NCBI GenBank assembly: GCA_030429145.1
Contig: JAUIDC010000001.1
Location: 660,001 to 692,000 of the forward strand
DNA from: Candidatus Saccharimonadota bacterium
GTDB lineage: Bacteria; Patescibacteriota; Gracilibacteria; Absconditabacterales; Absconditicoccaceae
Reading direction: 5' to 3'
Length of the DNA stretch: 32,000 nucleotides
This document shows, one piece after another, positions 667 to 24,311 of the stretch (its first letter is position 1; each line of letters opens with the position of its first letter). Both the position numbers and the translations under genes were made by a program. The notes under the pieces are model-generated. The model did not search any database. It was given only the letters and a program-made list of their open reading frames with translations, and was not told where the DNA came from.

Positions 667-3600
667 CTATGAGTCTAAAAGTGAACGTAATTTTGCAATG
701 CCAGTAGGATTCAACTGTCTTTCGATAGCTCCGATAGTGACCTGATGTTCTCCCGGATGTTGTTTGACAACCTGTGCTACCTGTTGTAGTAACGATGGGT
801 TATCAGGGAGGGCGAACTGCATAGGTCATGTGGCTTCTTCATTGCTTGAACTGCCTCAGCCAGTGCTGTTATTTTCGTCGTTGCTATTGCTATCACTATC
901 GCTTTCATCATCTCTGAGTTCGTCTGACGCTTTTTCAGCTTGTTTGAGGCTGATCGTCTCGCCTGTTTCGCTGTCGACGATCTCATCTTCGAGGTCTCCT
1001 GTACCGTGTGCCAGTGCATTGACACCGAGCCTGGTAGTTTTTACCTCCGCGACGGATTCATCATTGTATTTATTTGATTTTTTTGCTTCTTCTATGATAC
1101 TTTCTAGCGATGTTTTCACGATTTTACTGATCTTAAGAGATCTGTTTTTCCAACCTTCAATAATCAAAATATCAAACTTCTGGATATCCAAAGTCTCTTT
1201 CATGAAAAACTCTATCTCATCGGAAATATCTTCTACTGCGACAAAATATCACTTCTTTTTTGCTCTCTGAATGTTTCTCACGAAACAGAGGATCTTCACA
1301 TTGCCAAAGGCCTGTTCTTTGTCGTAATATTTGAACATGCTGATAAGCGAGTATCTTCCTTTGATATATGGATAGAGTCCATCAAATGGATGACCTGACA
1401 CAAATGTTTTAAATACATCATATTCGGTCAGCAGTTTTTCCATTTTACTGGTTGGCTCTGCTTGTTCGAGCTCGAGTTTTGGCTTCACATCGGCGACCGC
1501 AAATAAGCTCTGCTCAGCATTGTTGCTACCCGCCATTTTTACCCACTCAATGATGCGGGGCACATTGTGGAGGATTGTCTTGCGGTCAACAAAACCTGAG
1601 AACGCTCACGCCTTTGCGAGAGATTCCAGTGTTTTTTTGTTGATGAGACTCTCGCACCTTGTGAGAAAATCTTCGAGATCTTTGAACGGACCGTTCTGTC
1701 TTCTTTCTTGCTCGATCTGTTCGCTGACGTCGCCGCCGACTCATTTGATACATTGAAATCCAAGCCTGATCGAATCGTCTATGGCGGCGACATGTCTGAA
1801 CGACTCATTGACATGAGGCGGTAGCACGCGATATCCCTGCAGCTTCAGCTCATTAATAAACTTACTGAGTTTCTCAGCATCTTCTTCAACAGACCTTAGC
1901 AAGGCTGCATTGAACTCAATAGGGTAGTTCGCCTTGAGATAAGCCGTCTGATATGAGAGCATACCATATGTTACCGAGTGGGACTTATTGAATGAGTAGA
2001 ACGCTGCAGGTTCTATCATTTTTTCATAAATCCATGTACTCGTCTCCTCTTTATATCCTCTAAATGAAGCAGCTTTTTCGATGAACTGTCACTTAATTTC
2101 TTCAATAACTTCTTTAATTTTCTTACCAATACCACGTCTCAGATTGTCCGCTTCTGCAAGTGAAAATCACGCCATCGCTTGTACCAAGAACATGAGCTGT
2201 TCTTGATAGACAGCAATACCATAAGTTACTGCGAGAATAGGATCGAGGTCTTCCTCTAATTTTTTCTTTTCTTCCTGTGCCGTTGCCTCGTCGTATTTCT
2301 GTACGAGGATATCCCACAGCTCTGGAAGCATATAATTTTTTTCTTCTTCTCCGTGTTTTCTTGCGATATATCTTGGGATAAACTCCATCGGTCCGGGACG
2401 ATAGAGTGCACCCATCGCGATGATATCGTTTACGTCAGTTGGTTTGAGTTTTACCAAAAAGTTTCTGATACCATCTCATTCAAATTGAAACACTCATGAG
2501 GTGTCTCACTTTTGGAGAACTCTTTCGAAGGTGTTCTGGTCGTCCAATGGTGGTTCAAAAACCATCGTTTCAAAGTAGTTCTGGAAGATCTCTGGTAGAT
2601 CTTTACCAGCATTTTTATATTTCGCTCTGACGATTTTCATCGTATTTTTAATGAGCGTCAAAGTTCTGAGACCCAAAAAGTCCATCTTCAACAGTCCAAT
2701 ATCTTCAAGGTCGTGTCACTCATATTGTGTGACGAGTTCTTTCTTTTCTTCCTCTTCGGGTTTGCTTTTTCCTTGAGGCTTAGGTGGATGCTGTACTGGG
2801 GTATAGGTGGTAATTTCTTCTGGTGCAATGATGATACCACACGCGTGCACACCTGTTCCCCTTACTGTCCCTTCAAGTTTGATAGCTTCGTCAAATGTCT
2901 TTTTGATGATAGGATCATTTTCATACATGTTCCTCAAATCTTCTGTAGCATCGAGCGACGCTTGGATGGTTTTTTCATTGATAAGTGAGGCGATGAAATT
3001 TGATCTATCGAAAGGGATACCCATGACTCTTGCGACATCTTTGAATGCAGCACGAGCAGCCATGGTCATATATGTTCCAATATGTGCAACTTTTTCTTTA
3101 CCGTATTTGTCTGCGACGTAGTCTACTACCTTATCTCTCTGTACATCTTCAAAGTCCACGTCGATATCGGGCATCGACACACGGGCAGGATTGAGAAATC
3201 TTTCAAAGAGGAGATCATAAGGGAATGGATCGACATCGGTAATGCCGGTGAAATAGGCCATGAGTGAACCAGCGGCAGAACCACGTCCAGGGCCCACAGA
3301 GACATCATGTGTCTTTGCCCAGTTGATGAAATCCTGTACGATAAGGAAGTAGGTGTTATATCCCATCTCTTTTACTACTTTGAGTTCATATTCGAGACGC
3401 TCGATATAATCAGCAATTGATATTTTCCCATACAGATTCTCTTTATATTTTGCGATAAGTTTTTTCTTCTCTTCGGTGTAGGTGAGGGCAGTGATTTCTT
3501 TCAGTTCTGCCGGTGTCGTCTCTGTCAGTTTTTTCGTCAAATGACCTTTGTCAGTGATAGCAACCATGCTCAAAATATCTTGGTCTGACCATTCATCTAT

Positions 3601-3669
3601 CTCCATTCTTCTCTTCATCCCCGCATATGACAGGTAACGTAATTCAAATTCAAAAATATCCATTCTCAC
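667..3669 (-). CDS. dnaE: DNA polymerase III alpha subunit, C-terminal fragment (palm/thumb/fingers, beta-binding, HhH, OB and C-terminal tail); lacks the PHP domain
   Basis: Six track ORFs (2716-3669, 2506-2691, 2167-2457, 1741-2019, 1249-1563, 856-1203) share one frame and are joined only by TGA (11 in total). Motifs: GPGRGSAAGS, LLFERFLNPARVSMPDIDVDF, KMDFLGLRTLT, LYRPGPM, YGIAVYQEQ, FNKSHS. TGA aligns with conserved Gly (CIK[TGA]VGG vs E. coli AIKGVGEG; QAMA[TGA]FSLAEAD vs VLSGYTLGGAD). An in-frame TAA lies 7 codons upstream of the ATG at 3669, and the gene ends with TAG at 667. Confidence 0.93.
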
Positions 3670-8246: not shown

Positions 8247-9173
8247 TTAAGAAGCCGGTTTTGCACTGAATTGTTCGTATAAATGCTTGATTTCTGTCGG
8301 ACTTTCATATGCAGGGAAAAGGAGCTGATGGAGAGGGATTTTGACGTCAATCATGTTGATCAGTTGATTGTTGTTGTCAATCCGAGTCTGTATTTGTTCC
8401 TTAGAGTACCCATTTGCCTCTAAAAGAGAGATTACTTCCTTTTCGCTCATAATGTGCCAATCTCCTTCTGCTTTCTTTCTGCCATGTTCATAGTATTGTT
8501 TTCCGTCCTTGATACATCTTGCGATATCGAATGCGTCTTTTTCTTCTTCTGAGACATAGTGGAAGTTGTTGTCCACGAGACAAGGGATCGAGCTTGCCTT
8601 GCTCAGGGCTATGATAGCGTCATTTACTTTCTTTATGAGCGGGAGCTCGGTATGTGACTGTGCACATACTTCGAAGAAGAACTGATCAGCAGGAAAGTAT
8701 GAAGCGTAGAGCTGCATGAGTTCTGTCATTTTCTTTTCCGATTCTCATTGTTGTAAAAGCCAAGCTATGTAGCTATTTTCTCCTCAGATGACTCCTATAA
8801 GGTTTGTAGTTCTGTCACGAAGCTTTTCTATGGGGAAACAGGCTGTATTTTCTGAAGATCCTGTATGAGCTTCCGATACGATCTTAAGCAGTTCTTGGTA
8901 TCCTTCATAGTTCTTTGCAAGGAGGGTCATATAGTAGGGTTTGTCTAGTTTCCCTTCTTTCATCATATGCGTGCAGATGTCTACACCTACAAGAGGCTTA
9001 AGATCTTCTTTTTGTGCAACAATAAAGTGCTGAATAGCTCCATACATGCCATTGTAGTCCGAGATTGGCATGACAGTCTGTCCTAAGCTTTTTATCTTCT
9101 TCGCTATAGCTTTGAGATCACCGATAGCATGAAGGAGAGAGTAATGGCTATGTCAGTGTATGTGATTGAACAT
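8247..9173 (-). CDS. dnaE: DNA polymerase III alpha subunit, N-terminal fragment (PHP domain only, 308 aa)
   Basis: The ATG at 9173 gives MFNHIH[TGA]HSHYSLLHAIGDLK... (the PHP HxH motif). It joins track ORFs 8784-9071 and 8247-8729 through TGA at 8784 and 8745. It is colinear with E. coli DnaE residues 1 to about 285, up to LLFPAYESP (E. coli LPQFPTG), and then ends at a genuine TAA (8247) after ...EQFSAKPAS. Confidence 0.9.
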
Positions 9174-9375: not shown

Positions 9376-11682
9376 ATGAAAAGGTATGTGATCAAATGAG
9401 TGACAGGAATATCATTGGGTGCTATTATGTTTACGGGCTTTTTGTTCGCAGATTCTCGAAATTTGCCAGGGGTAAACGTCGTGACGCGTGCAGAGTGGGG
9501 TGCTGATGAGACTATGAAATATGCATCTCGCCAAGAGTATCAAGAGATGGCAAGACTTGCAGAAGAACGTAGAAAGTATATGACAGAGATGGAACATGAG
9601 CATGCTGAAGAGGAGGCTCAAAAGTCTGCTACGGCGCGTGCGTATGCTTTAGAGAATTTTCCGAATGATATACTTCTCGATATGGTAGTTGATACTGAGA
9701 ATGGTCATAAGCTCTGGTGGAAAAAAGAGTATGTGTTCAATAAGACAAAGATACTTGTCCATCATACAGTAAATGATATGTCTAAATTGCAGTCGGAGTC
9801 TGATGTAAAGTCGCTTCTTCGTTCTGTCTATAGATTACACGCTGTCCAACATGGTTGGGGTGATATTGGTTACAATTTTGTCATTTCACCTGGAGGAGTG
9901 ATCTACGAGGGAAGAAGTGGGGGTGAGTGAGTCGTAGGTGCTCATGCTACGCGGAATAATCAGCCGAGTGTAGGTATTGCATTGATTGGTAATTTCCAGG
10001 TCGATCAGCCCACAGACGCTCAAATTGAGGCGTTGATTTCACTGAGTACTGCACTAGCAGCAAAGTATAAAATTGATCCTATGGTTCAGGTTGAATATCA
10101 TAAGAGCTCGTCGAGCTATCCATATGTAGCAACATTGACAAACTTTGCCATTGCTGGGCATAGGGACGTTGGTGCAACAGCTTGTCCAGGTGAGCAGCTT
10201 TATAAGCTTCTTCCAGCTATCCGTGACCGTATCACTTTACAGGTACCAAAATATCTTGCTCAGTATCCAAATGTAAAAGTTATCAACAAGCCAGTTGCTA
10301 CGGTGTCGAATACTACATCAAATATCTCTACATCTACTCCAACACTTCCAACCTCTACTACCGTCGTCAATAGTGTGACTAAAACACAGTTAACACTACC
10401 AGCAGCCTACGGACTTACTAATAATACCTATCTTGCGCGCACGCGCGCACCACATATGGGAACGACGCTGCCTCAGTGTAAGATTATTTCTGGAGAAGTA
10501 ACGCTTGCTGGTTGTATGTATCGCAATGGAGAACTTGTTGTAGGCATCAGAAAAAAGGGAAACAATACGAATCCATGAGTGATACGTGTTGAAGCAAAGT
10601 CTCGTCGCGTAGAGGTGCTATTTGATCTCCCTATAGCATGGGGTGGTAGTAATAATAGCGTTAGACCTTCTCTTCCGACAAGTTCGACTAATACTAATAG
10701 TAATACTTCAGTACAGCAGCCTACAGACCCCGTTCTGACTCAAAGAAGAGCTCAATTCCCCCTTACGATAGCAAATCCTATCACAAAAATTAGCTCACCA
10801 GTGTCTGTTTCACAAGTGCCAGCGCTGATGAAAAAAGATGTCTCAGTGCTTCTGTACAATGCTAGCATGCTCTCATCATCATGGACGTTTATCTGTTCAG
10901 GACAGTGTTCTCTGAGATGAACGCCGTTTGGGACGCTTTCTGTTTCGTTTCATGATGGGATGTTGACAGTGCAAAAATGACCGCTTTCGTGGAAAGAAGC
11001 AAGACTACAACTGGAAACTCAGGGAGATTCTACTATAGCTGTGCTTGATGGTTTGACCAAGAAACAGTATGGTATCTATAGGGGAGACATTACATTGGTA
11101 CCACAGAACATCAGAAAAATAGACGGTAATTATGTTAACCAATATGCTGTGGTAAATACGCTGCCGGTCGAACAATACTTGGCAGGTATGGCAGAGGCGT
11201 CAGATAGAGAGCCATTGGAAAAGACCAAGGTGTTAGCCCTTCTGACGAAGGCGTACGCTCTTTACTACATAGCCGGCAGCGGTCCACATCCTTCTATACC
11301 GAAGGATGCCGTATATCAGGCTATAGATGACCCTCGCTTCTTCCAGAAGTACGTAGGTGTCACTTGGGAGAGAGCATCAAAAAACTGGCCTATAGCAGTA
11401 GAGGCAACAAAAGACAAGTATATTGTCTACAACAATACTTTGCCTATCTTGCCGTATTTCCATTGTTCACCAGGCTTTACATGGTCGGCTCGTGAGAAGC
11501 GAGGACGAACAGACACACCATACCTCAAATCAGTTTTGGATGAGAGTGGTTGTACAAGCTTCGAATGACATGGTGTTGGTCTGAGCTGACAAGGAGCTAC
11601 AAAAAAGGCTGAGAATGGAGAAAAGGCGGAAGATATCTTGAAGTACTACTATGATGGTATAGAGCTGGTCACTATTAGGTAA
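9376..11682 (+). CDS. Secreted or membrane-anchored cell-wall hydrolase: N-acetylmuramoyl-L-alanine amidase (Amidase_2/PGRP type) fused to a SpoIID/LytB domain (768 aa)
   Basis: AGGAGGT lies directly upstream of the ATG at 9376, and the N-terminus has a hydrophobic signal/anchor. Four track ORFs (9400-9930, 9982-10578, 10579-10920, 11041-11568) share one frame and are joined by TGA (7 in total). Amidase_2 motifs: ILVHHT, WGDIGYNFVISPGGVIYEGR, GAHA..N..SVGIALIGNF, AGHRDVGATACPG. Ser/Thr-rich linkers follow. SpoIID motifs: YRGDITL, VNTLPVEQYLAGMAE, and the C-terminal [TGA]HGVGLS[TGA]QGA...ILKYYY. Stop is TAA at 11680. Confidence 0.85.
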
Positions 11683-11853
11683 AATGACACTATTATTACT
11701 ATGATGAGAGCCTTCCTAACTTACCCGTTAGAGAGGTTCTTTTATTCATAAGGGTTTTTCCTACCTATTTCGTGAAAATATTGCAAAAATGGCTGAAATC
11801 TCTATAATTGAATGCATTGGAAAATTGCATATTTGTGAATTTAATAATCCATT

Positions 11854-13068
11854 ATGAAGAAAATTCTGATGAATACCCAGCCATTTAAAGTGGCTGGTAT
11901 CGCAAGAGTAGTCAATAATATGGTGACAGACCCTCTTTTGCATGAACATTTTTCATTTGTGACAGTAGATCTTGAAGACACCAGTTGTGATGAGTCGACA
12001 TATAGATCTGTTGAAACAGCCTTTGGTAAGGAAGTTGTTGGTAATATTCCAAGGATACCAGCAGATGAGATGATACATTCCTCATATGATGAGCTTGTTC
12101 AACAGAACGACTATTATATTCAAGTTTATGAGAAGATTATAGCTGAGGAAGAGATAGATGCTGTAGTTGTAAATGGGACATATATTGTACCTCGATGTCT
12201 TCTGCAGGCTGCTAAGAGGGCAAATCTTCCTGTTATGACTTATTATCACGGTATTTTGACCAAAGAGATATCATTTAGTGACAAAAAAGACCTATTGCCG
12301 TTTTGTGAAATCCTAGAAAAAACATTTATATCAGATAGTGATAGCTTTATCTTCCCTTCAAATCTTACACATCGCCTTGTAGAGAAAAAATTTGGGGTAT
12401 TGCATCAACCTCATGTGGTCATTCCCAATGGGGTGCCAGAATCGTTTTTTGAGTATGGTGAGGATATGATACCATTAGGAGCAGAGAAGAAACAAGTAGG
12501 TTTTGTCATGTCCCGAAGCAAGGTAAAGAACAAAGACTTTGTCCTGTCTTTTGCAAAAGAGAATAAAGAAAAGTGAAATGTTGTCGACATTCATTTGATC
12601 TCTAGGCGCATAGGGGACAAAGATAAAAAGCTATTGGATAGCTATGGGGTAATCATACATAATGAGCGTGAACACTCTGATTTACCACATTTTTTCTCAT
12701 CTCTTGATATATTATTGAGTCCAAGTTACTTTGAGACATACGGAAATATCGTCCAAGAGTGTCTTGCATGTTGAGTACCTGTACTAGTAAGTGCTACTAT
12801 GGGAGTTTGTGAGATCCTAAGGAAGATTGGACTGGAGGGTATGATCTATGATTTTCATCATTACTCATTTCATTCTCTTGTGGAGGCTATAGATGAAGTA
12901 GTGAAAAATAATGAAACATCTTACACTAGACTCCTTTCAGATGAAGTAGCATTAGGTATAGTCAATAAAAAAAGAAAACAGTTTTTAGAGACTGCTTTCC
13001 ATGTTTCTAGATGGACCTTGTTAAAGTCTTTCTTTTATAGGTTAGTACCTTCATCACTAGTTAAATAG
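11854..13068 (+). CDS. Glycosyltransferase, GT-B fold (family 4-like), 404 aa
   Basis: Track ORFs 11854-12576 and 12799-13068 share a frame and are joined through TGA at 12574 and 12772. The C-terminal half has the GT4 signature ETYGNIVQECLAC[TGA=G]VPVLVS (family pattern E.fG....EA.A.G.PV). Stop is TAG. Confidence 0.75.
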
Positions 13069-13069
13069 C

Positions 13070-14095
13070 CTATGCCTTATCAGCCACTGGCTCAATATAC
13101 AATTTCTGAATAAGGACGATGATGATGGCGAGGAGTGGTGTCGCGAGGATTATGCCTATCCCGCCTGCGATGATACCCATGAATACCTGAAAGAGGATGA
13201 TATAGGCAGGTGGTAGGTTGACCATTTTTTGTTGGATGAGAGGAGTGATGAACTCGCCTTCGATATTCTGAATGACAACAAAGAGGATGATAACTCCTGC
13301 CGCGAGGGCTGGCGAGACAGTCAATGCAACGAGCGCCGCTGGAATGAGCGCAATCAATGGTCAAAAATTGGGAATGAAATTGAGTAATCCAGCAAGCAAG
13401 GCAAATAGTAATGCGAATGGTACGCCCATGATAGTGAGACCGATCCCTGTCGCGATAAAGACGATGATCATAGCGATGATCTGTCCAAGAATTCGTTTTC
13501 CAAGAGTATCGTAAAGATTGTACATGAGCTTGTTTATCTTTTCCCTCTTGCTCTGAGGGAACATTGCAAGAAATGTTTTTCTGTAGAGCATTGGCGTCGC
13601 AGTAAAGTAGATTGTCAGGATGAGCACAATGTAAAGATCTCCTAAAGCTCCAAAGGTTGATGAGAAGAAAGAGGTGATCGTGTCAGTAATTTTTTGCTCA
13701 TTGTCAGATCACTGGTTGACCAGTTGTTTACCCTGATAGAGAGCCCATTGACCAGCAGGAGTTTTGTTAAGCTCTTCAGTGATCGACTGTGAATAGCTTG
13801 GTAGTTCTCATTGAAAGTCTTTTGCCTGATTGCTAATTTTTGCTCCAGCACCTCGAATGAATCCACCTATGAGTGCAATGGTTCATACAATGACTATAAG
13901 AAGAGATAGTCGCTTTTTTATGCGAGTATGTTTTGCTAGTAGCTCAGCAAGTTTTCTGAAATAGACTGATACCAATATGGCTGCAAATACAAGAAGAAGT
14001 AAGCGAAAAGCTTCTTGTAGTCCTAGAAAGAGGATGACACCTGTGAGAATAACAACCGCAACAATAAGCGTTTTTTGTGTAAAGTTTTTTTCCAT
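13070..14095 (-). CDS. AI-2E family transporter (PerM/UPF0118), 341 aa
   Basis: ORFs 13883-14095, 13361-13627 and 13070-13357 share a frame and are joined by TGA at 13883, 13808, 13709 and 13358. The protein is polytopic and carries the family motif LNFIPNF[TGA=G]PLIALIPA and then IQNIEGEFITP. Stop is TAG at 13070. Confidence 0.85.
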
Positions 14096-14214: not shown

Positions 14215-16050
14215 ATGAAAAACATCGTGGAACTTTTGGATACCATCGCAACTATACCTCACAAAGATGCTCTTAATGTGCTCAAGCGTACTAAGAGAGA
14301 CTTTGCGAAGAAGTATAATATTTCTGATATTCCAAGCAATGTTGATCTCTTGAAACAGTATCGTCAACTTGTGTCTACTGGTGTCTACTCTAAGAGTGAA
14401 CGTGTAGAACAACTTCTTAAGAAAAGAGGAGTGCGTTCTGAGTCAGGTATAGTGCCAATACAAGTTCTTACAAAACCTTTTTGGTGTCCTGGTGAGTGTA
14501 TCTTCTGCCCCAATGATGCTACCATGCCAAAGAGTTATATCAATACCGAACCAGGAGCGATGCGTGCATTGCTCAATCAGTTCGACCCGTATAAACAGAC
14601 CTACAATAGATTACTTTCTTTGCATATGACAGGTCATGAGACTGATAAGATAGAGATGATCGTTCTTGGGGGTACGTGGGATGTCTATCCAAATGGGTAT
14701 AAGAGAGATTTCTTGAAATGATTGTATGATGCATGTAATACTTTTGACCAGTTTCTCGAGCAGTATGAACAACACAATATTCGTTGTGGTAAGTATAACC
14801 TTGCGGACCTTGGGATAGACTATCCGAAAACGATAGATGAGTCGATGTTGATCAATGAGACAGCTAATCATCGCATGATCTGATTGACGATTGAGACGAG
14901 ACCTGAATATATGACAGATGAGAACTGTCAGATGTGGCGTAGCCGAGGAGTGACTCGTCTGGAGATGGGACTACAATCTATGTTCGATGATGTGCTGGAT
15001 GCAAACAAGCGTGGGCACTCTGTCCAGCAAGCGAGAGAGGCGGTACATAAGATGCGCCAGTATGGGTTTAAGTTCTCTATCCACTTCATGCCAGGACTTT
15101 ATGGATCGACGGTAGAGAAAGACATTGAGTCATTTAGGCTCGCCTATGAAGATCCGTATATTAAACCTGATGAGATTAAATTCTATCCGACGGCGGTTAT
15201 CCCGAATACGGAGCTCTATGAGCTTTATCGTAAAGGAAACTACAAACCGTTGGAGACAGAGGATATTATTCATATCATCCGTAAAGTGCAGGGGGATATT
15301 ATTCCGCCTTATACGAGAATCAAACGTTTGATTCGTGATATTCCTTCGACTGAAATTGTTGCAGGAAGTAATATTACGAACTTGAGACAGATCACTGAAA
15401 ATAAGATGCAAGAAGAGTTAAATGGAGATGAAGGTAAGAGAAAAAAGTTGTATGGGAGACTCTATGACCAATCCCAAGTTTTTGTTTCATTGACCGAGCG
15501 ATTACAGGCAAAACATGCTGATGAGGAGGTCGCTATCATCTGACAACAGCCTGATGCGATTTCTATGAGAAACTTTGTTGCGCTTGATACCAGAGCAAGA
15601 GAGATTCGTAACAGGAAAGATAAGCCTGAGCAAGAGAGTGCTAACCTAGTTGTTAGAAAATACCAATCATCTGTAGGAGATGAGTATTTTATCTCTTATG
15701 AGGATGAGCTTGGGTATCTGTATGGGTTTACGAGGCTCCTTCTTCCGAGAGACGAGCACGCATTTGAGTGGGAGTGACTGGGAAAACATACAGCACTCAT
15801 CAGAGAGTTGCACGTCTATGGTCAAATGGCGTCGCTTCGCGACGAATGAAAAATTGAAAATTGAAAATCTAAACACCCACACCAACAGCACAAGGGTTTT
15901 GGTTCAAGACTTATGGAGGCAGCAGAACAAATAGCCAAGCATTATGACTACCAAAAGATCTCAGTTATTTCTTGAATCTGAGTCAGAGAGTATTATAAGA
16001 AAATAGGTTATCAGAAAGAATGAACGTATATGGTTAAATCATTATCATAA
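14215..16050 (+). CDS. elp3: Elp3-family radical-SAM / GNAT acetyltransferase (tRNA U34 carboxymethyl-type modification enzyme), 611 aa
   Basis: ORFs 14215-14721, 14884-15543 and 15565-15777 plus the tail to 16050 share one frame and are joined by about 10 TGA. Radical-SAM cluster: KPFWCPGECIFCP (CX3CX2C). Also present: IETRPEY, GVTRLEMGLQS, and the GNAT motifs RELHVYG and QHKGFGSRLMEAAE. The C-terminus reads VIS[TGA]I[TGA]VREYYKKIGYQKE[TGA]TYMVK, matching the Elp3 pattern VISGIGTRxYYxKLGYxxxGxYMxK. Confidence 0.88.
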
Positions 16051-17185: not shown

Positions 17186-17671
17186 ATGTTGCCAAAATAT
17201 CAGAAACTCAGTTGAAAGGATGTACGTTTTCTGCTCCGTAAGAGAGGAATGATCTACGGTAAAGGGATGGTGTTTGTCGTCTATCCGCAATATGAAGACA
17301 GAAAATATCACCAGTGGAGTGTCCAAGTGTCGGTGAAGATAGCGAAGTCTTCTGTCAAAAGAAACCTTATCAAAAGGCTTTTTCTTGCGCAGTTGGCAAA
17401 AGATCTACCCGTTGGTGAACCTATCTGTGGAGGCTACTTTAAGATATTTGTCTACTTCCATAAAGACCTCCCTTCAGAGCTGACAAACATCCTTGCAAAT
17501 CCAGAAAAAAATGCTATAAACAGCCAAATACTTACTCATTTTCATGAGCACTTTATCTTATTTCCATCCCTTCTATGCCGTTATCTAGAATCATCAAAAA
17601 TATCGGGCACGCCATCAAGAAAAAGACCTCACGCATCAAGACAGCCAAGAGGAAAGAGCTTGAAGAAATAG
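17186..17671 (+). CDS. rnpA: Ribonuclease P protein component
   Basis: The ATG lies 2 nt after the holB stop. The sequence MLPKYQKLS[TGA]KDVRFLLRKRG...WSVQVSVKIAKSSVKRNLIKRLFLAQL carries the RnpA RNR-like motif (KK..AV.RN..KR). The last 30 or so codons overlap the next gene and may not be genuine. Confidence 0.7.
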
Positions 17672-18870
17672 AGCGCCTGTATAGTGAACTTGAGCAGAAA
17701 GATGTAGAGCTGGAACACGCTAAGGCACATGGTCACAGACAAAAGCGAGATACCAATAGTATTTTCAAGTTTTGGATTATCGGAGCATTTATTGTCTACT
17801 TGTCGTATCTTGCGTTTCAGACGCTGGATATTATCTACCTCGTTGGGGCAGCATTTATCTTCTCTATGGTGATGGATGCGCCGATAAACTATTTTTCAAA
17901 GCGTATGCCAAGAGGGCTATCACTCTTTTTGGCCTACTTTATCATGATCATCATCATTGCAGGGTTGCTCTTTATCGTCCTGCCGTTCATTTTCAATCAG
18001 ATAGGTGGAATCGTCACATTGGCTATCAATAAGATCAATCAGTTTAAACAGGCATTAGATTCTACTGGTCTCATAGGTATCGTTAATGATGCAGTATGGC
18101 TGCCGGCAGCCTTGAAAGACTATCTCTTACAAAGTCTTCGTGATCCAGCATTTCAGTCACAGGTCGTGTCAGGTCTTCAGCAAAATATCTCATCTTTGGT
18201 TTCACAGGGTACAAATTTTGCAACTAATATCGGTGGCTTTGCTGTCAATATCGTTACAGGTGTCTTTTCAACGATTGTACAGATTGGTCTTGTATTGACA
18301 CTTTCAGTACTGTTCTCTGTAGAAAAGAATAATGTGATCAACTTTATCTCACGTTTGGCATGAAGTCGTAGTTCGTCTACCTATGTGAAACTTCAACGTC
18401 TCTATGCAAAGCTTGGGTTTTGGCTCAAAGGACAGCTCATCGTATCAGGCTACATTGCCTTGATGGTCTTCCTTCTTCTGAATATCGTTGGACTATTTGG
18501 TATCAAGATACCGAGTACTGGATCGCTTGCACTGATAGCAGGTATGACGAATATCTTTCCGTACATTTGACCGATCCTGGGCTCAATACCTGCGCTACTA
18601 GTTGCTGCTCTTGCACTTGGTTGGCCAGGAATCATAGCAGTGCTTATTATATTTAGTATCACACAGTGGACAGAAAATAATATCCTTACGCCGATAGTGA
18701 TGAATAAGACATTAGGAGTAAGTCCGTTGGTTGTGCTTCTATGTATGATTATTGGTTGATTGGTATTTGGTTTTATTGGTGTGCTTTTTGCAGTACCTAT
18801 TGCAGTTGTCGTCAGTGTACTTGCTGATAGTGAAAAGAAAGAAGAGCAGCATAAATCAAAAAAATCATAA
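17575..18870 (+). CDS. AI-2E family transporter (second paralog), 431 aa, with a roughly 65-aa charged N-terminal extension
   Basis: ORFs 17575-18363 and 18385-18570 plus the tail share a frame and are joined by TGA at 18361, 18568 and 18757. Family motif: TNIFPYI[TGA=G]PILGSIPA, then TQWTENNILTP. Stop is TAA at 18868. Confidence 0.82.
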
Positions 18871-19746: not shown

Positions 19747-20223
19747 ATGACATTGGATCTGTGTTCTAAATCTCCATTACAAAAGGGTATGCCGACTGAA
19801 ATGTTGGAGATTATTGATATATTGAAGGGCTGTAAAAGTCAGGAAGATTGCCTGCGCATGGTATATGACATTTTAACTAAGCGTTTTGCTGGTGACAGAT
19901 TGAAGACTGTTACCCATATTGCTTCACTTTTTGTTAAAGATATTTCTGTCTTGTGGACAAAAAAGTTCCTGCACTGTACCAATAGCAATTACATTTTAAG
20001 ACATCTTTTGATTGCCAGTGGACATTTTGTGGAGAAAGATATCCAACTAAAGTGGACATTTATTCGATATTTGTCTCCTCATCAATATGTACGTGTTTTA
20101 CTACAAGGGAATCGAATAGATGTTGATATTCGGGCAAGTGCATATGGCATTCCTTTCGGGGACCATGCTCATTGATTTCATTGAACTCTTTTTCGTAAAG
20201 AATGAAAAACATTGTCGTCTTAG
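19747..20223 (+). CDS. Transglutaminase-like cysteine-protease-fold protein
   Basis: The core FLHCTNSNYILRHLLIASG (C in a G/HCxxF-like context), a downstream His (SPHQYVRV) and an Asp (IDVDI) resemble the transglutaminase-core Cys-His-Asp arrangement. After the TGA at 20173, the table-25 model runs 16 more codons to TAG at 20221 and overlaps the next gene. Confidence 0.4.
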
Positions 20224-20651
20224 AAAATATACGTAGTGCCTACAATGTAGGTAATGTGATCCGTACAGCAGATGCTCTTTGATGGGATGTTGCTTTTTGT
20301 GGTTATACGCCGACGCCGATGAATCAGCCAAAAGTCGTAAAGACTTCATTGGGGGCAGAGAAATCTGTTGGTTGCAGAAGTTTTGAGGATACTGCTAATG
20401 CTGTAGAACTGCTACGCAAAGAATGATATGAGATCATTGCTGCGGAGATTACTGATGATGCTATAGGATTGGCTGAGTATACTCGTGATACAAAAAAACC
20501 TCTTGCCGTAGTGTTTGGCAATGAGGTTGTGGGAGTAGAAGGTGATACCTTACAGCTGGTTGATAGAGTGGTATATATCCCTATGAAAGGAGAAAAGGAA
20601 TCACTTAATATTGGGCAGAGTGCTGCGATATTTATGCGGCATCTTTGATAA
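20202..20651 (+). CDS. SpoU/TrmH-family RNA 2'-O-methyltransferase (149 aa)
   Basis: Motif 1: NIRSAYNVGNVIRTADAL[TGA=G]W. Motif 2: VVFGNEVVGV. Motif 3: IPMKGEKESLNIGQSAAIFM. The gene ends ...HL-TGA-TAA. Confidence 0.75.
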
Positions 20652-23188: not shown

Positions 23189-23217
23189 AAAGCCGCTGTA
23201 ATACAGCGGCTTTTTTC
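23189..23217. terminator. Bidirectional rho-independent terminator
   Basis: AGCCGCTGT-AAT-ACAGCGGCT followed by TTTTTT. It lies between the convergent 22768 gene (+) and the UPF0371 gene (-). Confidence 0.8.
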
Positions 23218-24311
23218 TATTCTTCTTTTTCTATTCTATTCTTCTCAAACTCCTGTGCTTTCTCATAGAGCTTGTCGCTCATCTCTAGCCATTTTTTGTC
23301 TCCTTCTCATCTTTCTACTACTTGGCTGTATCGTTCTTTTCTTCTGAGGATTTCCTCTGTTGAGGCCTTGCGACACTGCTCGTCATTGGTTATTGCGAAG
23401 CCAGCTTTATTGATTCCCATGTCGGTTGGGGATTGGTAGCTTCTCGTGAAATTCTTTTCAGGAAGGAAGCTGTTTGCTAGCTTTTTGACGATCTCAAACG
23501 CTTCGACATCGCGGTTGTAATTAACACTTTTTTCGCCATAAGCCTTTTCGTGAAATGGGTCGTACATGTTGTAGTCTCCAATGTCGATGGTTGCAGCTTC
23601 ATATGCTAGGTTAATGGGATGCTCGAGAGGAAGATTCCAGATAGGAAACGTTTCGTATTTTGCATATCCACTATCTACGCCATGAGTATATTCGTGGTAG
23701 ATTTGACCAAGACAGGTGGACATTTTACCGCTGTTTGAAGCAGCGCCTGTGACGATGACAAGCTTGTTTGTTACAGGTATGTACTCGTCTTTTCCATAAC
23801 CATCCTTGCTCAACACCTTCTCTGTCTCATGAGGATATCCATCCATCATATATCTTTTGAAGAGCTCATATCCTGCAAAGGTTGAAAGCACTCTCAGCAT
23901 ATTGGCACTGTTTTTCTCCTCGATAGGAATCATATTGACAGCAATATATGGTTTAATCCCAAGACTTCATTCGATCTTACTTACCATTTTTTTACAGTAG
24001 GTGAGATAGTCTATATCTTCATTGCTCAACTGTCTGTCACTCACGATGTCTTTATAGTTGATGCAGAAAATAATATCAGCCTCTGATGCGAGATTTTTAA
24101 AAATCTTTCTTTTACTTTCTGGATCGAAACCAGGCAACACTCTCGCAGCATGTGGATCATATAAAAACTTTCCACCTATCTCGAGGTAGAGTCTTCCACT
24201 GAACTTATTCATCCTTTCACGAATGGCTTCCGCCTGGAGCTCAATATATTTCGCTCCATCAAATCAGATCTGTTCAGCTGTATATTCGATAATGTCAGAA
24301 GAGTTTATCAT
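23217..24311 (-). CDS. UPF0371/DUF1846-family protein (364 aa)
   Basis: The ATG at 24311 gives MINSSDIIEYTAEQI[TGA=G]FDGAKYIELQAEAIRERMNKFSGRLYLEIGGKFLYDPHAARVLPGFDP. Later motifs: TGAASNSGKMSTCLGQIYH, SGYAKYETFPIWNLPLEHPINLAYEAAT, SPTDMGIN. ORFs 23967-24212 and 23307-23933 are joined by TGA. Stop is TAG at 23217. Confidence 0.7.

What the first reader, a model, noticed from the sequence alone, without database searches (positions are those of the whole stretch)
14215..16050. Elp3, a bacterial Elongator-type radical-SAM/GNAT enzyme, in a UGA-recoded genome: a possible link to the U34 anticodon that reads UGA
Seen directly: an intact 611-aa Elp3 with the CX3CX2C cluster, the GNAT acetyl-CoA motif QHKGFG and the family C-terminus.
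Established knowledge: Elp3 is the catalytic subunit that initiates cm5-type modification of wobble U34 in eukaryotes and archaea. Bacterial homologs are rare (for example Dehalococcoides). In yeast, its substrates include tRNA-Gly(UCC).
Inference: table-25 organisms must decode UGA with a tRNA-Gly carrying U34 (anticodon UCA) while avoiding UGG (Trp). The chemistry at U34 is exactly what controls that discrimination. A dedicated Elp3 could therefore be part of the machinery that makes the reassignment workable. This is a hypothesis, not something the sequence shows.
Basis: inference. Interest (0 to 1): 0.65.

Follow-up and report, generated by a model that had tools for sequence, protein, structure and literature searches.

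The report
Elp3 tRNA-modifying enzyme, recoded CPR genome
The gene is a real, intact Elp3 (the enzyme that starts chemical modification of the wobble uridine in tRNA anticodons) in a bacterium that reads UGA as glycine, but related bacteria with the standard genetic code have Elp3 too, so it is not a special add-on for the altered code.

Summary
Observation confirmed. Window 14215-16050 (+) encodes an intact 611-aa Elp3 if its nine in-frame TGA codons are read as glycine. It scores 493 bits against NCBIfam TIGR01211 (cut-off 350), all catalytic residues are present, and a confident model matches only Elp3 structures. TGA = Gly, not Trp, was shown directly.

The proposed link to code 25 is not supported by distribution. 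All 27 close relatives found are recoded. However, 12 of 12 DNA-checked loci from standard-code CPR bacteria also carry Elp3, as does a named Peregrinibacteria protein. None of 120 relatives of a standard-code Elp3, and one of 108 distant relatives of the second recoded family, shows the recoding marker.

Two points keep the idea partly alive. Elp3 is retained, catalytically intact, in two separate recoded lineages. The window's lineage has a monophyletic, derived subfamily with a unique ~50-aa insertion and no zinc-motif cysteines.

Absence of MnmE/MnmG/MnmA could not be established. No tRNA gene lies in the window. In passing, CGA/CGG are read as Trp here.

The gene is an ordinary, already annotated Elp3. 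The decoding hypothesis remains untested.

The parts
14215..16050 (+). Elp3 coding sequence: 611 codons plus a TAA stop, with nine in-frame TGA = Gly codons starting at 14719, 14881, 15541, 15775, 15847, 15862, 15973, 15979 and 16021
14215..14412 (+). N-terminal helical extension (aa 1-66). It resembles the ELP3_N region that archaeal and eukaryotic Elp3 use for tRNA binding and that Dehalococcoides Elp3 lacks
   Evidence: weak Pfam PF23613 hit; helices at 2-12, 19-33 and 42-54 with pLDDT 87-95; role of the N-terminus from PMC6367351
14413..15414 (+). Radical-SAM domain with its C-terminal extension (aa 67-400)
   Evidence: Pfam PF04055 and PF16199; alignments to solved Elp3 structures
14485..14508 (+). 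[4Fe-4S] cluster motif C91-x3-C95-x2-C98 (CPGECIFC), with bacterial-type spacing
   Evidence: invariant in 25 recoded and 12 standard-code Elp3s; motif comparison
14668..14676 (+). SAM-binding GGT motif (G152, G153, T154)
14743..14805 (+). Insertion 1 (aa 177-197), helical. It lies in a loop that also varies in length in other bacterial Elp3 groups, so it is not distinctive
14893..14895 (+). E227, equivalent to M. infernus E207, which is essential and lines the acetate tunnel
   Evidence: residue role from PMC13315578
15178..15186 (+). K322 and Y324, equivalent to M. infernus K302 and Y304, which are essential active-site residues
   Evidence: PMC13315578
15418..15570 (+). Insertion 2 (aa 402-452): a confidently modelled small alpha/beta module in the central linker, unique to the recoded Elp3 family 1
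   Evidence: this region holds a median of 88 residues in family 1 against about 22 in every other group; pLDDT 82-96
15580..15597 (+). Remnant of the Zn-binding CxCxxC motif (ALDTRA). All three cysteines are replaced (A456, D458, A461)
   Evidence: [quoted passage not shown]
15622..16047 (+). GNAT/KAT acetyl-CoA domain (aa 470-611), including the flexible blocking loop 538-559
   Evidence: Pfam GNAT hits; alignment; the low-pLDDT segment 538-559
15886..15903 (+). Acetyl-CoA motif QHKGFG (Q558, G561, G563)
15991..15996 (+). Conserved C-terminal Tyr-Tyr (Y593, Y594)
14944..14946 (+). CGA codon 244, most likely read as Trp in this lineage
15499..15501 (+). CGA codon 429, most likely read as Trp in this lineage

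Best explanation
The ORF encodes a functional, stand-alone bacterial-type Elp3, the radical-SAM/GNAT enzyme that makes 5-carboxymethyluridine (cm5U) at wobble position U34 of tRNAs. By analogy with characterised Elp3s, the C-terminal GNAT domain binds and hydrolyses acetyl-CoA when tRNA is bound. Acetate then passes through an internal tunnel to the radical-SAM site. There the [4Fe-4S] cluster (C91/C95/C98) cleaves SAM, the 5'-deoxyadenosyl radical abstracts a hydrogen from acetate, and the resulting radical adds to C5 of U34. E227, K322 and Y324 position the acetate. The host is an Absconditabacteria-type CPR bacterium that reads UGA as Gly and CGA/CGG as Trp. The gene is a housekeeping gene in the conserved origin-proximal neighbourhood (gyrB, ruvA, holB, dnaA). 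Elp3 is widespread in CPR bacteria whatever their code, so it is better seen as a trait shared across the radiation and kept in the recoded lineages than as a device acquired for code 25. It probably modifies the usual split-box U34 tRNAs and, by default, may also modify the lineage's new U34 tRNAs. Shown here: identity, integrity, conservation of catalytic residues, fold, genetic code, and distribution across codes. Inferred: activity, substrates, and vertical inheritance.
For: Family and fold: TIGR01211 at 493 bits against a 350 cut-off; Pfam domains; PDB sequence matches only to Elp3; AF2 model with pLDDT 90.7 and pTM 0.89; the top 11 Foldseek hits are all Elp3 (TM 0.84-0.92), with other radical-SAM enzymes at 0.55 or below. 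Function retained: every catalytic residue tested is invariant in 25 recoded orthologues, including the residues shown experimentally to be essential in M. infernus Elp3 (PMC13315578). Genetic code. Not code-specific: 27 of 27 high-identity loci are recoded, while 12 of 12 loci at 34-40% identity use the standard code and still carry Elp3; named Peregrinibacteria, CPR3 and Patescibacteria records carry it; the P0253 gene translates under table 11; none of 120 clusters near the standard-code L030 Elp3 and one of 108 near P0387 show Trp at invariant Gly columns. Bacterial-type signature: the CPGxCxxCP....MPKSY motif is shared with all nearest relatives and differs from the archaeal spacing. Housekeeping context and synteny with gyrB/ruvA in many recoded relatives.
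Against: No biochemical data exist for any CPR Elp3. The deep placement of the recoded clade is unresolved: in the neighbour-joining trees, standard-code CPR loci are almost never its immediate neighbour, so vertical descent from a CPR ancestor is plausible but not shown. [quoted passage not shown] How often Elp3 occurs in recoded versus standard-code CPR genomes was not measured, so an enrichment in recoded lineages is still possible.
Confidence: 0.8

Rival explanations
1. Elp3 is a dedicated part of the code-25 machinery: it modifies U34 of tRNA-Gly(UCA) so that the tRNA reads UGA but not UGG, and its presence is tied to the reassignment.
For: Elp3 is kept, catalytically intact, in every recoded locus recovered: 27 loci, and 88 of 120 database relatives carry the recoding marker. 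A second, heavy-TGA recoded lineage also keeps it. The window's lineage has a monophyletic, derived Elp3 (100 of 100 bootstraps) with a unique insertion and loss of the Zn motif. The UGA/UGG ambiguity is a recognised unsolved issue (PMC8629427). No MnmE, MnmG or MnmA was found in the DNA examined. From established knowledge, mammalian tRNA-Sec(UCA), which reads UGA, carries Elongator-dependent mcm5U34.
Against: The second recoded lineage has a canonical-looking Elp3, with the Zn motif kept and no insertion 2, so the derived features are not required for UGA = Gly. From established knowledge, xm5U34 modifications generally permit or promote reading of G-ending codons as well as A-ending ones, as with cmnm5U on tRNA-Trp(UCA) in code-4 organisms. 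A cm5-type group alone therefore does not obviously exclude UGG. The MnmE/G/A negatives are weak: only Elp3 neighbourhoods were searched, and the metagenome scan had no positive control.
Confidence: 0.12
2. Pre-adaptation form of the hypothesis. An Elp3 shared across the CPR replaces MnmE/MnmG as the only xm5U34 pathway. Because it modifies any U34 anticodon loop, it allowed new U34 tRNAs (tRNA-Gly UCA, tRNA-Trp UCG) to work in newly split codon boxes. The derived subfamily reflects later tuning to those tRNAs.
For: Elp3 is present in both standard-code and recoded CPR. The recoded lineage has two reassignments that create split boxes needing purine-restricted U34 reading: UGA = Gly and CGA/CGG = Trp. 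The recoded Elp3 is more diverged from the archaeal and Dehalococcoides enzymes than the standard-code CPR Elp3s are: mean Kimura distance to M. infernus Elp3 of 1.08 against 0.95 (1.11 against 0.98 to Dehalococcoides Elp3), and 307 against 430 bits to M. infernus Elp3. It also carries a unique insertion in the linker next to the tRNA-binding cleft.
Against: Absence of MnmE/G was not established. Faster evolution may simply reflect genome-wide rates in these symbionts. Nothing is known about substrates. The heavy-TGA lineage manages without the derived features.
Confidence: 0.2
3. The ORF is a decayed pseudogene, or a protein (histone-type) acetyltransferase and not a tRNA enzyme.
For: Nine in-frame TGA codons under the standard code. 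Old database names such as 'Histone acetyltransferase, ELP3 family'.
Against: TGA is a sense (Gly) codon genome-wide and falls on conserved Gly columns. All catalytic residues are invariant across 25 orthologues. Lin et al. [quoted passage not shown]
Confidence: 0.02

Closest known systems
Standard-code CPR Elp3 (e.g. P0253 from Candidatus Peregrinibacteria CG1_02_41_10; loci L028-L039)
   Same: Bacterial-type cluster motif CPGxCxxCP....MPKSY, an N-terminal extension of about 65 aa, all catalytic residues, and no other Elongator subunits. These are the nearest non-recoded sequences by similarity, at 34-43% identity.
   Different: About 530-570 aa, with the Zn-binding CxCxxC motif intact and no insertion 2. 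They score much closer to archaeal Elp3 (430 against 307 bits). Their genomes use the standard code.
Dehalococcoides mccartyi Elp3 (PDB 5L7J, 6IA6)
   Same: A stand-alone bacterial Elp3 with the same rSAM + KAT fold (TM 0.91-0.92), identical cluster-motif spacing, and a blocking loop over the acetyl-CoA site.
   Different: DmcElp3 lacks the N-terminal extension and keeps the Zn motif (PMC6367351). The window protein is about 150 aa longer.
Methanocaldococcus infernus Elp3 (PDB 6IA8; reconstituted cm5U synthase)
   Same: Best sequence match among solved structures (3e-90). Has an extended N-terminus. The essential residues E207, K302 and Y304 correspond to E227, K322 and Y324.
   Different: Archaeal CX4CX2C spacing with a 5-aa insertion after the cluster motif; Zn-motif cysteines present; no insertion 2.
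Eukaryotic Elp3 within Elongator (PDB 8PTX, 8ASW)
   Same: Best structural matches (E = 2e-38). Like the window protein, it lacks the Zn-motif cysteines (PMC6367351) and has an N-terminal extension.
   Different: Works inside the six-subunit Elp1-6 complex, has CX9CX2C cluster spacing (from memory), and its products are processed further to mcm5/ncm5 by Trm9/Trm112.
Second recoded Elp3 family (P0387, P0397-P0404; loci L045, L048)
   Same: Also encoded in UGA = Gly genomes. It is the nearest neighbour of the window's clade in 57 of 100 bootstrap trees.
   Different: Keeps the Zn motif, lacks insertion 2, and has an N-terminal extension that is much longer in the alignment (about 150 residues in that region against about 64). 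Its hosts use TGA for most glycines (453-630 per 10,000 codons) and have a richer gene content.
MnmE/MnmG (bacterial cmnm5U34 pathway)
   Same: A functional analogue: it installs an xm5 group on wobble U34 of split-box tRNAs.
   Different: Unrelated proteins and chemistry (GTPase plus FAD/folate enzyme). Not found in the DNA examined, but absence from the genome is not established.

Membership tests
Elp3 (NCBIfam TIGR01211; tRNA U34 carboxymethyl synthase) | Whole-protein profile score above the curated cut-off | tested here: met
   493.4 bits against a cut-off of 350
Elp3 (NCBIfam TIGR01211; tRNA U34 carboxymethyl synthase) | Radical-SAM domain with a three-cysteine [4Fe-4S] motif and a SAM-binding GGT motif | tested here: met
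   C91/C95/C98 and G152/G153/T154, invariant (T154 in 24 of 25) across 25 recoded orthologues; Pfam PF04055 and PF16199
Elp3 (NCBIfam TIGR01211; tRNA U34 carboxymethyl synthase) | C-terminal GNAT/KAT domain with the acetyl-CoA motif Q/RxxGxG/A and the conserved C-terminal Tyr-Tyr | tested here: met
   QHKGFG at 558-563 and Y593/Y594, all invariant; Pfam GNAT hit at 26 bits against a 20.7 cut-off
Elp3 (NCBIfam TIGR01211; tRNA U34 carboxymethyl synthase) | Experimentally essential tunnel and active-site residues (M. infernus E207, K302, Y304) | tested here: met
   E227, K322 and Y324 are invariant in all groups; residue roles from PMC13315578
Elp3 (NCBIfam TIGR01211; tRNA U34 carboxymethyl synthase) | Two-domain Elp3 fold | tested here: met
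   AF2 model with pLDDT 90.7; the top 11 PDB matches are all Elp3, TM 0.84-0.92 normalised to the target
Elp3 (NCBIfam TIGR01211; tRNA U34 carboxymethyl synthase) | cm5U34-forming activity on tRNA | not testable with these tools
   Needs anaerobic reconstitution with SAM, acetyl-CoA and tRNA, or nucleoside LC-MS
Bacterial/archaeal Elp3 subgroup as described by Lin et al. 2019 | [quoted passage not shown] | tested here: not met
   A456/D458/A461 in the window. All three cysteines are replaced in 25 of 25 recoded family-1 loci and present in 12 of 12 standard-code CPR loci and in the M. infernus and Dehalococcoides enzymes. The basal member P0249 keeps them.
   Standard-code CPR genomes carry Elp3: 12 of 12 loci by DNA, P0253 from Peregrinibacteria, and none of 120 clusters with the recoding marker
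   Found in 27 GTDB species-level recoded genomes, in complete or near-complete ones (L002, 1.1 Mb; RAAC1_SR1_1; Vampirococcus lugosii), and in a second recoded lineage. There is no denominator: genomes lacking the gene cannot be seen with these searches.
   No hits in the 32-kb window, in 488 kb of recoded DNA or in 213 kb of standard-code CPR DNA. The metagenome scan for a TGA-spelled MnmG FAD motif gave only chance hits, with no positive control possible.
   No tRNA gene in the window, and no tRNA-Gly(UCA) in the 38 related loci scanned
MnmL/YtqA (TIGR01212), an Elp3-like radical-SAM tRNA enzyme | Profile score above the cut-off; single-domain architecture without a GNAT domain | tested here: not met
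   74.8 bits against a cut-off of 180, matching only the rSAM core at 218-410

The most novel reading that the evidence does not exclude
CPR bacteria in general may rely on an archaeal/eukaryotic-type Elp3 route, not MnmE/MnmG, to modify wobble U34. This pre-existing, promiscuous U34 modifier may be what let the Absconditabacteria lineage install two new U34 tRNAs in newly split codon boxes: tRNA-Gly(UCA) for UGA and tRNA-Trp(UCG) for CGA/CGG. The lineage's derived Elp3 subfamily, with a unique ~50-aa linker module replacing the zinc knuckle, could be an adaptation to those tRNAs.
Probability: 0.15. Interest if true: 0.75.

Novelty: new member of a known kind. Interest (0 to 1): 0.35.

Why it matters
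How code-25 bacteria keep UGA (Gly) and UGG (Trp) apart with a U34 tRNA is an acknowledged open question. Wobble-uridine chemistry is the natural place to look, so identifying the enzyme that acts on U34 in these genomes is a useful lead. This analysis narrows the lead. Elp3 is not a signature of the altered code, because it is common across CPR bacteria with the standard code, so presence or absence alone explains nothing. The testable points that remain are these. First, a catalytically intact Elp3 is kept in two independent-looking recoded lineages. Second, the window's lineage carries a distinct, well-defined Elp3 subfamily with a unique insertion and no zinc site. Third, the same lineage also reads CGA/CGG as Trp, which creates a second split box needing a restricted U34 tRNA. 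The results also correct the view that bacterial Elp3 is rare: the 50%-identity library holds 857 representative clusters at E <= 1e-30, and among the best matches bacterial-type sequences far outnumber the few recoded ones.

Tried and rejected
1. Pseudogene reading: rejected, because TGA is a genome-wide sense codon that falls on Gly columns.

2. Code 4 (TGA = Trp): rejected, with 0% Trp and 67% Gly at aligned columns. The protein database translates these genes with code 4, which I used as a marker of recoding.

3. A tRNA-Gly(UCA) near Elp3: none in the window or in the 38 related loci scanned.

4. The SpoU methylase at 20202-20651 as the wobble 2'-O-methyltransferase TrmL: rejected, at 26.5 bits against a 190.6 cut-off; it resembles RlmB/TrmH more.

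5. MnmE/MnmG/MnmA by tblastn with the E. coli proteins against all held DNA: no hits, but only Elp3 neighbourhoods were covered.

6. Metagenome scan for MnmG's GxGHAGxEA motif spelled with TGA: nine chance, out-of-frame hits in ordinary contigs.

7. Supplementary gene tables of the Vampirococcus and Gracilibacteria genome papers: no mention of Elp3 or mnm genes.

8. Literature linking Elp3 to Gracilibacteria, Absconditabacteria, Patescibacteria or CPR: nothing relevant. Searches for Elp3 with MnmG or MnmE failed technically.

9. Source names for the unnamed representatives: truncated or absent.

10. Deep phylogeny by neighbour-joining: clade monophyly is robust, but its sister group is unstable and exposed to long-branch attraction. 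No maximum-likelihood software was available.

11. Looking up the window's own record: not indexed.

12. Promoter and terminator scan around the gene: not above chance.
Full report
OBSERVATION. Under the standard bacterial code the frame 14215-16050 (+) is broken into pieces. All nine interruptions are TGA, at codons 169, 223, 443, 521, 545, 550, 587, 589 and 603, and the frame ends on TAA. With TGA read as sense it gives a 611-aa protein. It scores 493.4 bits against NCBIfam TIGR01211 (Elp3; cut-off 350). It contains Pfam Radical_SAM, Radical_SAM_C and GNAT domains. Among solved structures it matches only Elp3 proteins: M. infernus at 3e-90, Dehalococcoides at 1e-87, and eukaryotic Elp3 at about 1e-83.

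GENETIC CODE. In 26 window genes TGA occurs 103 times in frame and never ends a gene (14 TAA, 11 TAG). I aligned 25 recoded Elp3 genes with 12 standard-code ones. At columns where a recoded gene has TGA, the standard-code proteins have Gly in 67% of cases (background 6.5%) and Trp in none. At 20 invariant-Gly columns TGA is the most used codon (136 uses, against 127 for GGA). So TGA is Gly (code 25), not Trp. The public protein database holds this protein (P0001) translated with code 4, so it has Trp at exactly these nine positions. I used Trp at invariant-Gly columns as a marker of recoded genes.

THE PROTEIN. Every catalytic residue tested is invariant (one, T154, in 24 of 25) in the 25 recoded orthologues. 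These are the three cluster cysteines, the GGT SAM motif, E227/K322/Y324, the acetyl-CoA motif and the C-terminal Tyr-Tyr. E227, K322 and Y324 correspond to M. infernus E207, K302 and Y304, which a 2026 reconstitution study showed to be essential and to line the acetate tunnel (PMC13315578). An AlphaFold2 model built on an 83-sequence alignment is confident (pLDDT 90.7, pTM 0.89). The only disordered stretch, 538-559, corresponds to the known acetyl-CoA blocking loop. The top 11 Foldseek matches in the PDB are all Elp3 (TM 0.84-0.92 normalised to the target), and other radical-SAM enzymes reach at most 0.55. The most likely function is therefore the canonical one, cm5U34 synthesis: tRNA-triggered acetyl-CoA hydrolysis in the GNAT domain, transfer of acetate through the tunnel, and radical addition to C5 of U34 in the radical-SAM site (mechanism from PMC6367351 and PMC13315578). 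Activity and substrates here are inferred, not shown.

CONTEXT. The window is ordinary chromosomal DNA near the replication origin. It carries dnaA, gyrB, ruvA, ruvB, holB, dnaJ, a dnaE split into two genes, transporters and cell-wall genes. Elp3 lies between a divergently transcribed AI-2E-family transporter gene and holB. In many recoded relatives it stays within a few kilobases of gyrB and ruvA. The window has no tRNA gene, and none of the 38 related loci scanned has a tRNA-Gly(UCA). Promoter-like and terminator-like sites around the gene are not above chance.

DISTRIBUTION, THE KEY TEST. Reading the code from the DNA gave a clean split. L001-L027 (49-75% identity, proteins of about 600-710 aa) are all recoded. 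They have 5-25 in-frame TGAs in Elp3, and long-ORF coverage collapses under table 11. L028-L039 (34-40% identity, about 530-570 aa) are titled Peribacteria, Gracilibacteria, Patescibacteria group or Saccharibacteria. They have no in-frame TGA and normal table-11 ORF coverage (about 0.87 in most), yet all carry Elp3.

A protein search seeded with one of these standard-code proteins found 120 clusters at 53-93% identity, none with the recoding marker. A third search showed named standard-code holders: Candidatus Peregrinibacteria CG1_02_41_10 (P0253), 'Patescibacteria group' and candidate division CPR3. The P0253 gene translates correctly under table 11. Shulgina & Eddy independently report 'Gracilibacteria' in another GTDB order that keep UGA as a stop (PMC8629427). 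The 50%-identity library contains 857 Elp3 representatives at E <= 1e-30. Of 120 near-full-length representatives among the best 150, 113 show no recoding marker, and those inspected all carry the bacterial-type cluster motif.

Elp3 is therefore neither rare in bacteria nor tied to code 25 among relatives.

WHAT STILL FAVOURS A CONNECTION. First, Elp3 is kept intact in every recoded locus recovered, including complete or near-complete genomes (L002, RAAC1_SR1_1, Vampirococcus lugosii). Second, I found a second recoded Elp3 family: P0387 and P0397-P0404, nine clusters. Their DNA shows extreme TGA = Gly usage, 453-630 TGA per 10,000 codons against about 95-194 for all GGN codons. Third, the window's family is monophyletic (100 of 100 NJ bootstraps) and derived. 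It is further from the archaeal and Dehalococcoides enzymes than the standard-code CPR Elp3s are (307 against 430 bits to M. infernus Elp3; Kimura distance 1.08 against 0.95). [quoted passage not shown] It also has a unique, confidently folded ~50-aa alpha/beta insertion just before that motif.

However, the second recoded family keeps the Zn motif and lacks the insertion, so these features are not required for UGA = Gly decoding. A basal member of family 1 (P0249) has the insertion and still keeps the cysteines. The sister group of family 1 is unresolved. It is the second recoded family in 57 of 100 replicates and a mixed set of unnamed bacterial sequences otherwise, and long-branch attraction is a real risk.

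MnmE/MnmG/MnmA. None is in the window, in 488 kb of recoded DNA or in 213 kb of standard-code CPR DNA that I hold. All of that DNA is Elp3 neighbourhood, so this says little. In heavy-TGA organisms the MnmG FAD motif GxGHAGxEA should usually be spelled with TGA, so I scanned the metagenome collection for that pattern. All nine hits were chance, out-of-frame matches in ordinary contigs. The question stays open.

MECHANISTIC PLAUSIBILITY (established knowledge). xm5U34 groups typically restrict U34 to purine-ending codons and tend to permit G as well as A. In code-4 organisms cmnm5U on tRNA-Trp(UCA) reads both UGA and UGG. A cm5-type modification alone is therefore not an obvious way to exclude UGG. 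On the other hand, mammalian tRNA-Sec(UCA) carries Elongator-dependent mcm5U and reads UGA. The direction of any effect cannot be predicted from sequence.

NOTICED IN PASSING. In the recoded Elp3 genes, CGA and CGG never align with Arg. In one column all 25 genes have TGG (6), CGA (14) or CGG (5). In 17 recoded gyrB genes all 19 CGA/CGG codons fall in four TGG columns. This lineage therefore also reads CGA/CGG as Trp, as Shulgina & Eddy predicted for Absconditabacteria. Window Elp3 residues 244 and 429 are probably Trp. This creates a second split codon box that depends on a U34 tRNA.

VERDICT. The gene is a genuine, probably functional Elp3, and automatic pipelines already annotate it as such in this lineage. 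The proposed special relationship with code 25 fails the distribution test. The narrower idea, that this Elp3 modifies tRNA-Gly(UCA) and affects UGA/UGG discrimination, remains untested and moderately plausible. No paper in the searchable library links Elp3 to these lineages. Novelty: a new member of a known kind, with lineage-specific variant features. Interest: modest.

Noticed in passing
window 14944-14946 and 15499-15501 (CGA codons in Elp3); window-wide CGA 39.7 and CGG 7.1 per 10,000 codons: CGA and CGG behave as Trp codons in this lineage. In 25 recoded Elp3 genes they never align with Arg, and they alternate with TGG in the same columns. In 17 recoded gyrB genes all 19 CGA/CGG codons fall in four TGG columns. 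This matches the Absconditabacteria CGA/CGG-to-Trp reassignment predicted by Shulgina & Eddy 2021, so translating this window with table 25 is still slightly wrong.
   Followed up: yes
L045 (Elp3 at 10001-11941), L048 (Elp3 at 10001-11746); proteins P0387, P0397-P0404: A second TGA = Gly lineage in which TGA is the dominant glycine codon (453-630 per 10,000 codons; GC 27-33%). It carries a different Elp3 subfamily, with the Zn motif kept and a long N-terminal extension. Its gene context is unusually rich for a CPR bacterium: aconitase, GGDEF/EAL, RelA/SpoT, HSP90, pyruvate:ferredoxin oxidoreductase and TGT. Its taxonomic identity is unknown.
   Followed up: partly
window 667-3669 (-) and 8247-9173 (-): DNA polymerase III alpha (DnaE) appears split into two separate genes about 4.5 kb apart: a 308-aa PHP-domain protein and a 1000-aa polymerase core starting at the NTPase domain. 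gyrB, ruvA and two unknown ORFs lie between them. The same arrangement is seen in L001 and L002 (and at least the PHP gene in L003/L004).
   Followed up: partly
window 15580-15597 (Elp3 aa 456-461): [quoted passage not shown] A group of about 25-34 unnamed bacterial representatives ('group A', e.g. P0261, P0266, P0268) has also lost it, apparently independently.
   Followed up: partly
window 20202-20651 (+): A minimal 149-aa SpoU-family RNA 2'-O-methyltransferase lies 4 kb downstream of Elp3. It is not TrmL (26.5 bits against a 190.6 cut-off) and is closer to the catalytic domains of RlmB and TrmH. Its target is unknown.
   Followed up: yes
window 23217-24311 (-): The DUF1846 protein appears truncated: 364 aa cover only positions 2-336 of the 494-position PRK13663 model, at 374 bits against a 631 cut-off.
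   Followed up: no
window 13070-14095 (-) and 17575-18870 (+): Two AI-2E-family transporter paralogues bracket the Elp3-holB segment.
   Followed up: no
window 17186-17671 (+), overlapping the start of 17575-18870 (+): A basic 161-aa ORF just after holB has no family hit and overlaps the next gene by about 95 nt. It is conserved in L001 and L002 (61% identity). Its position and composition suggest a divergent RNase P protein or a similar small RNA-binding protein, but this was not tested.
   Followed up: no
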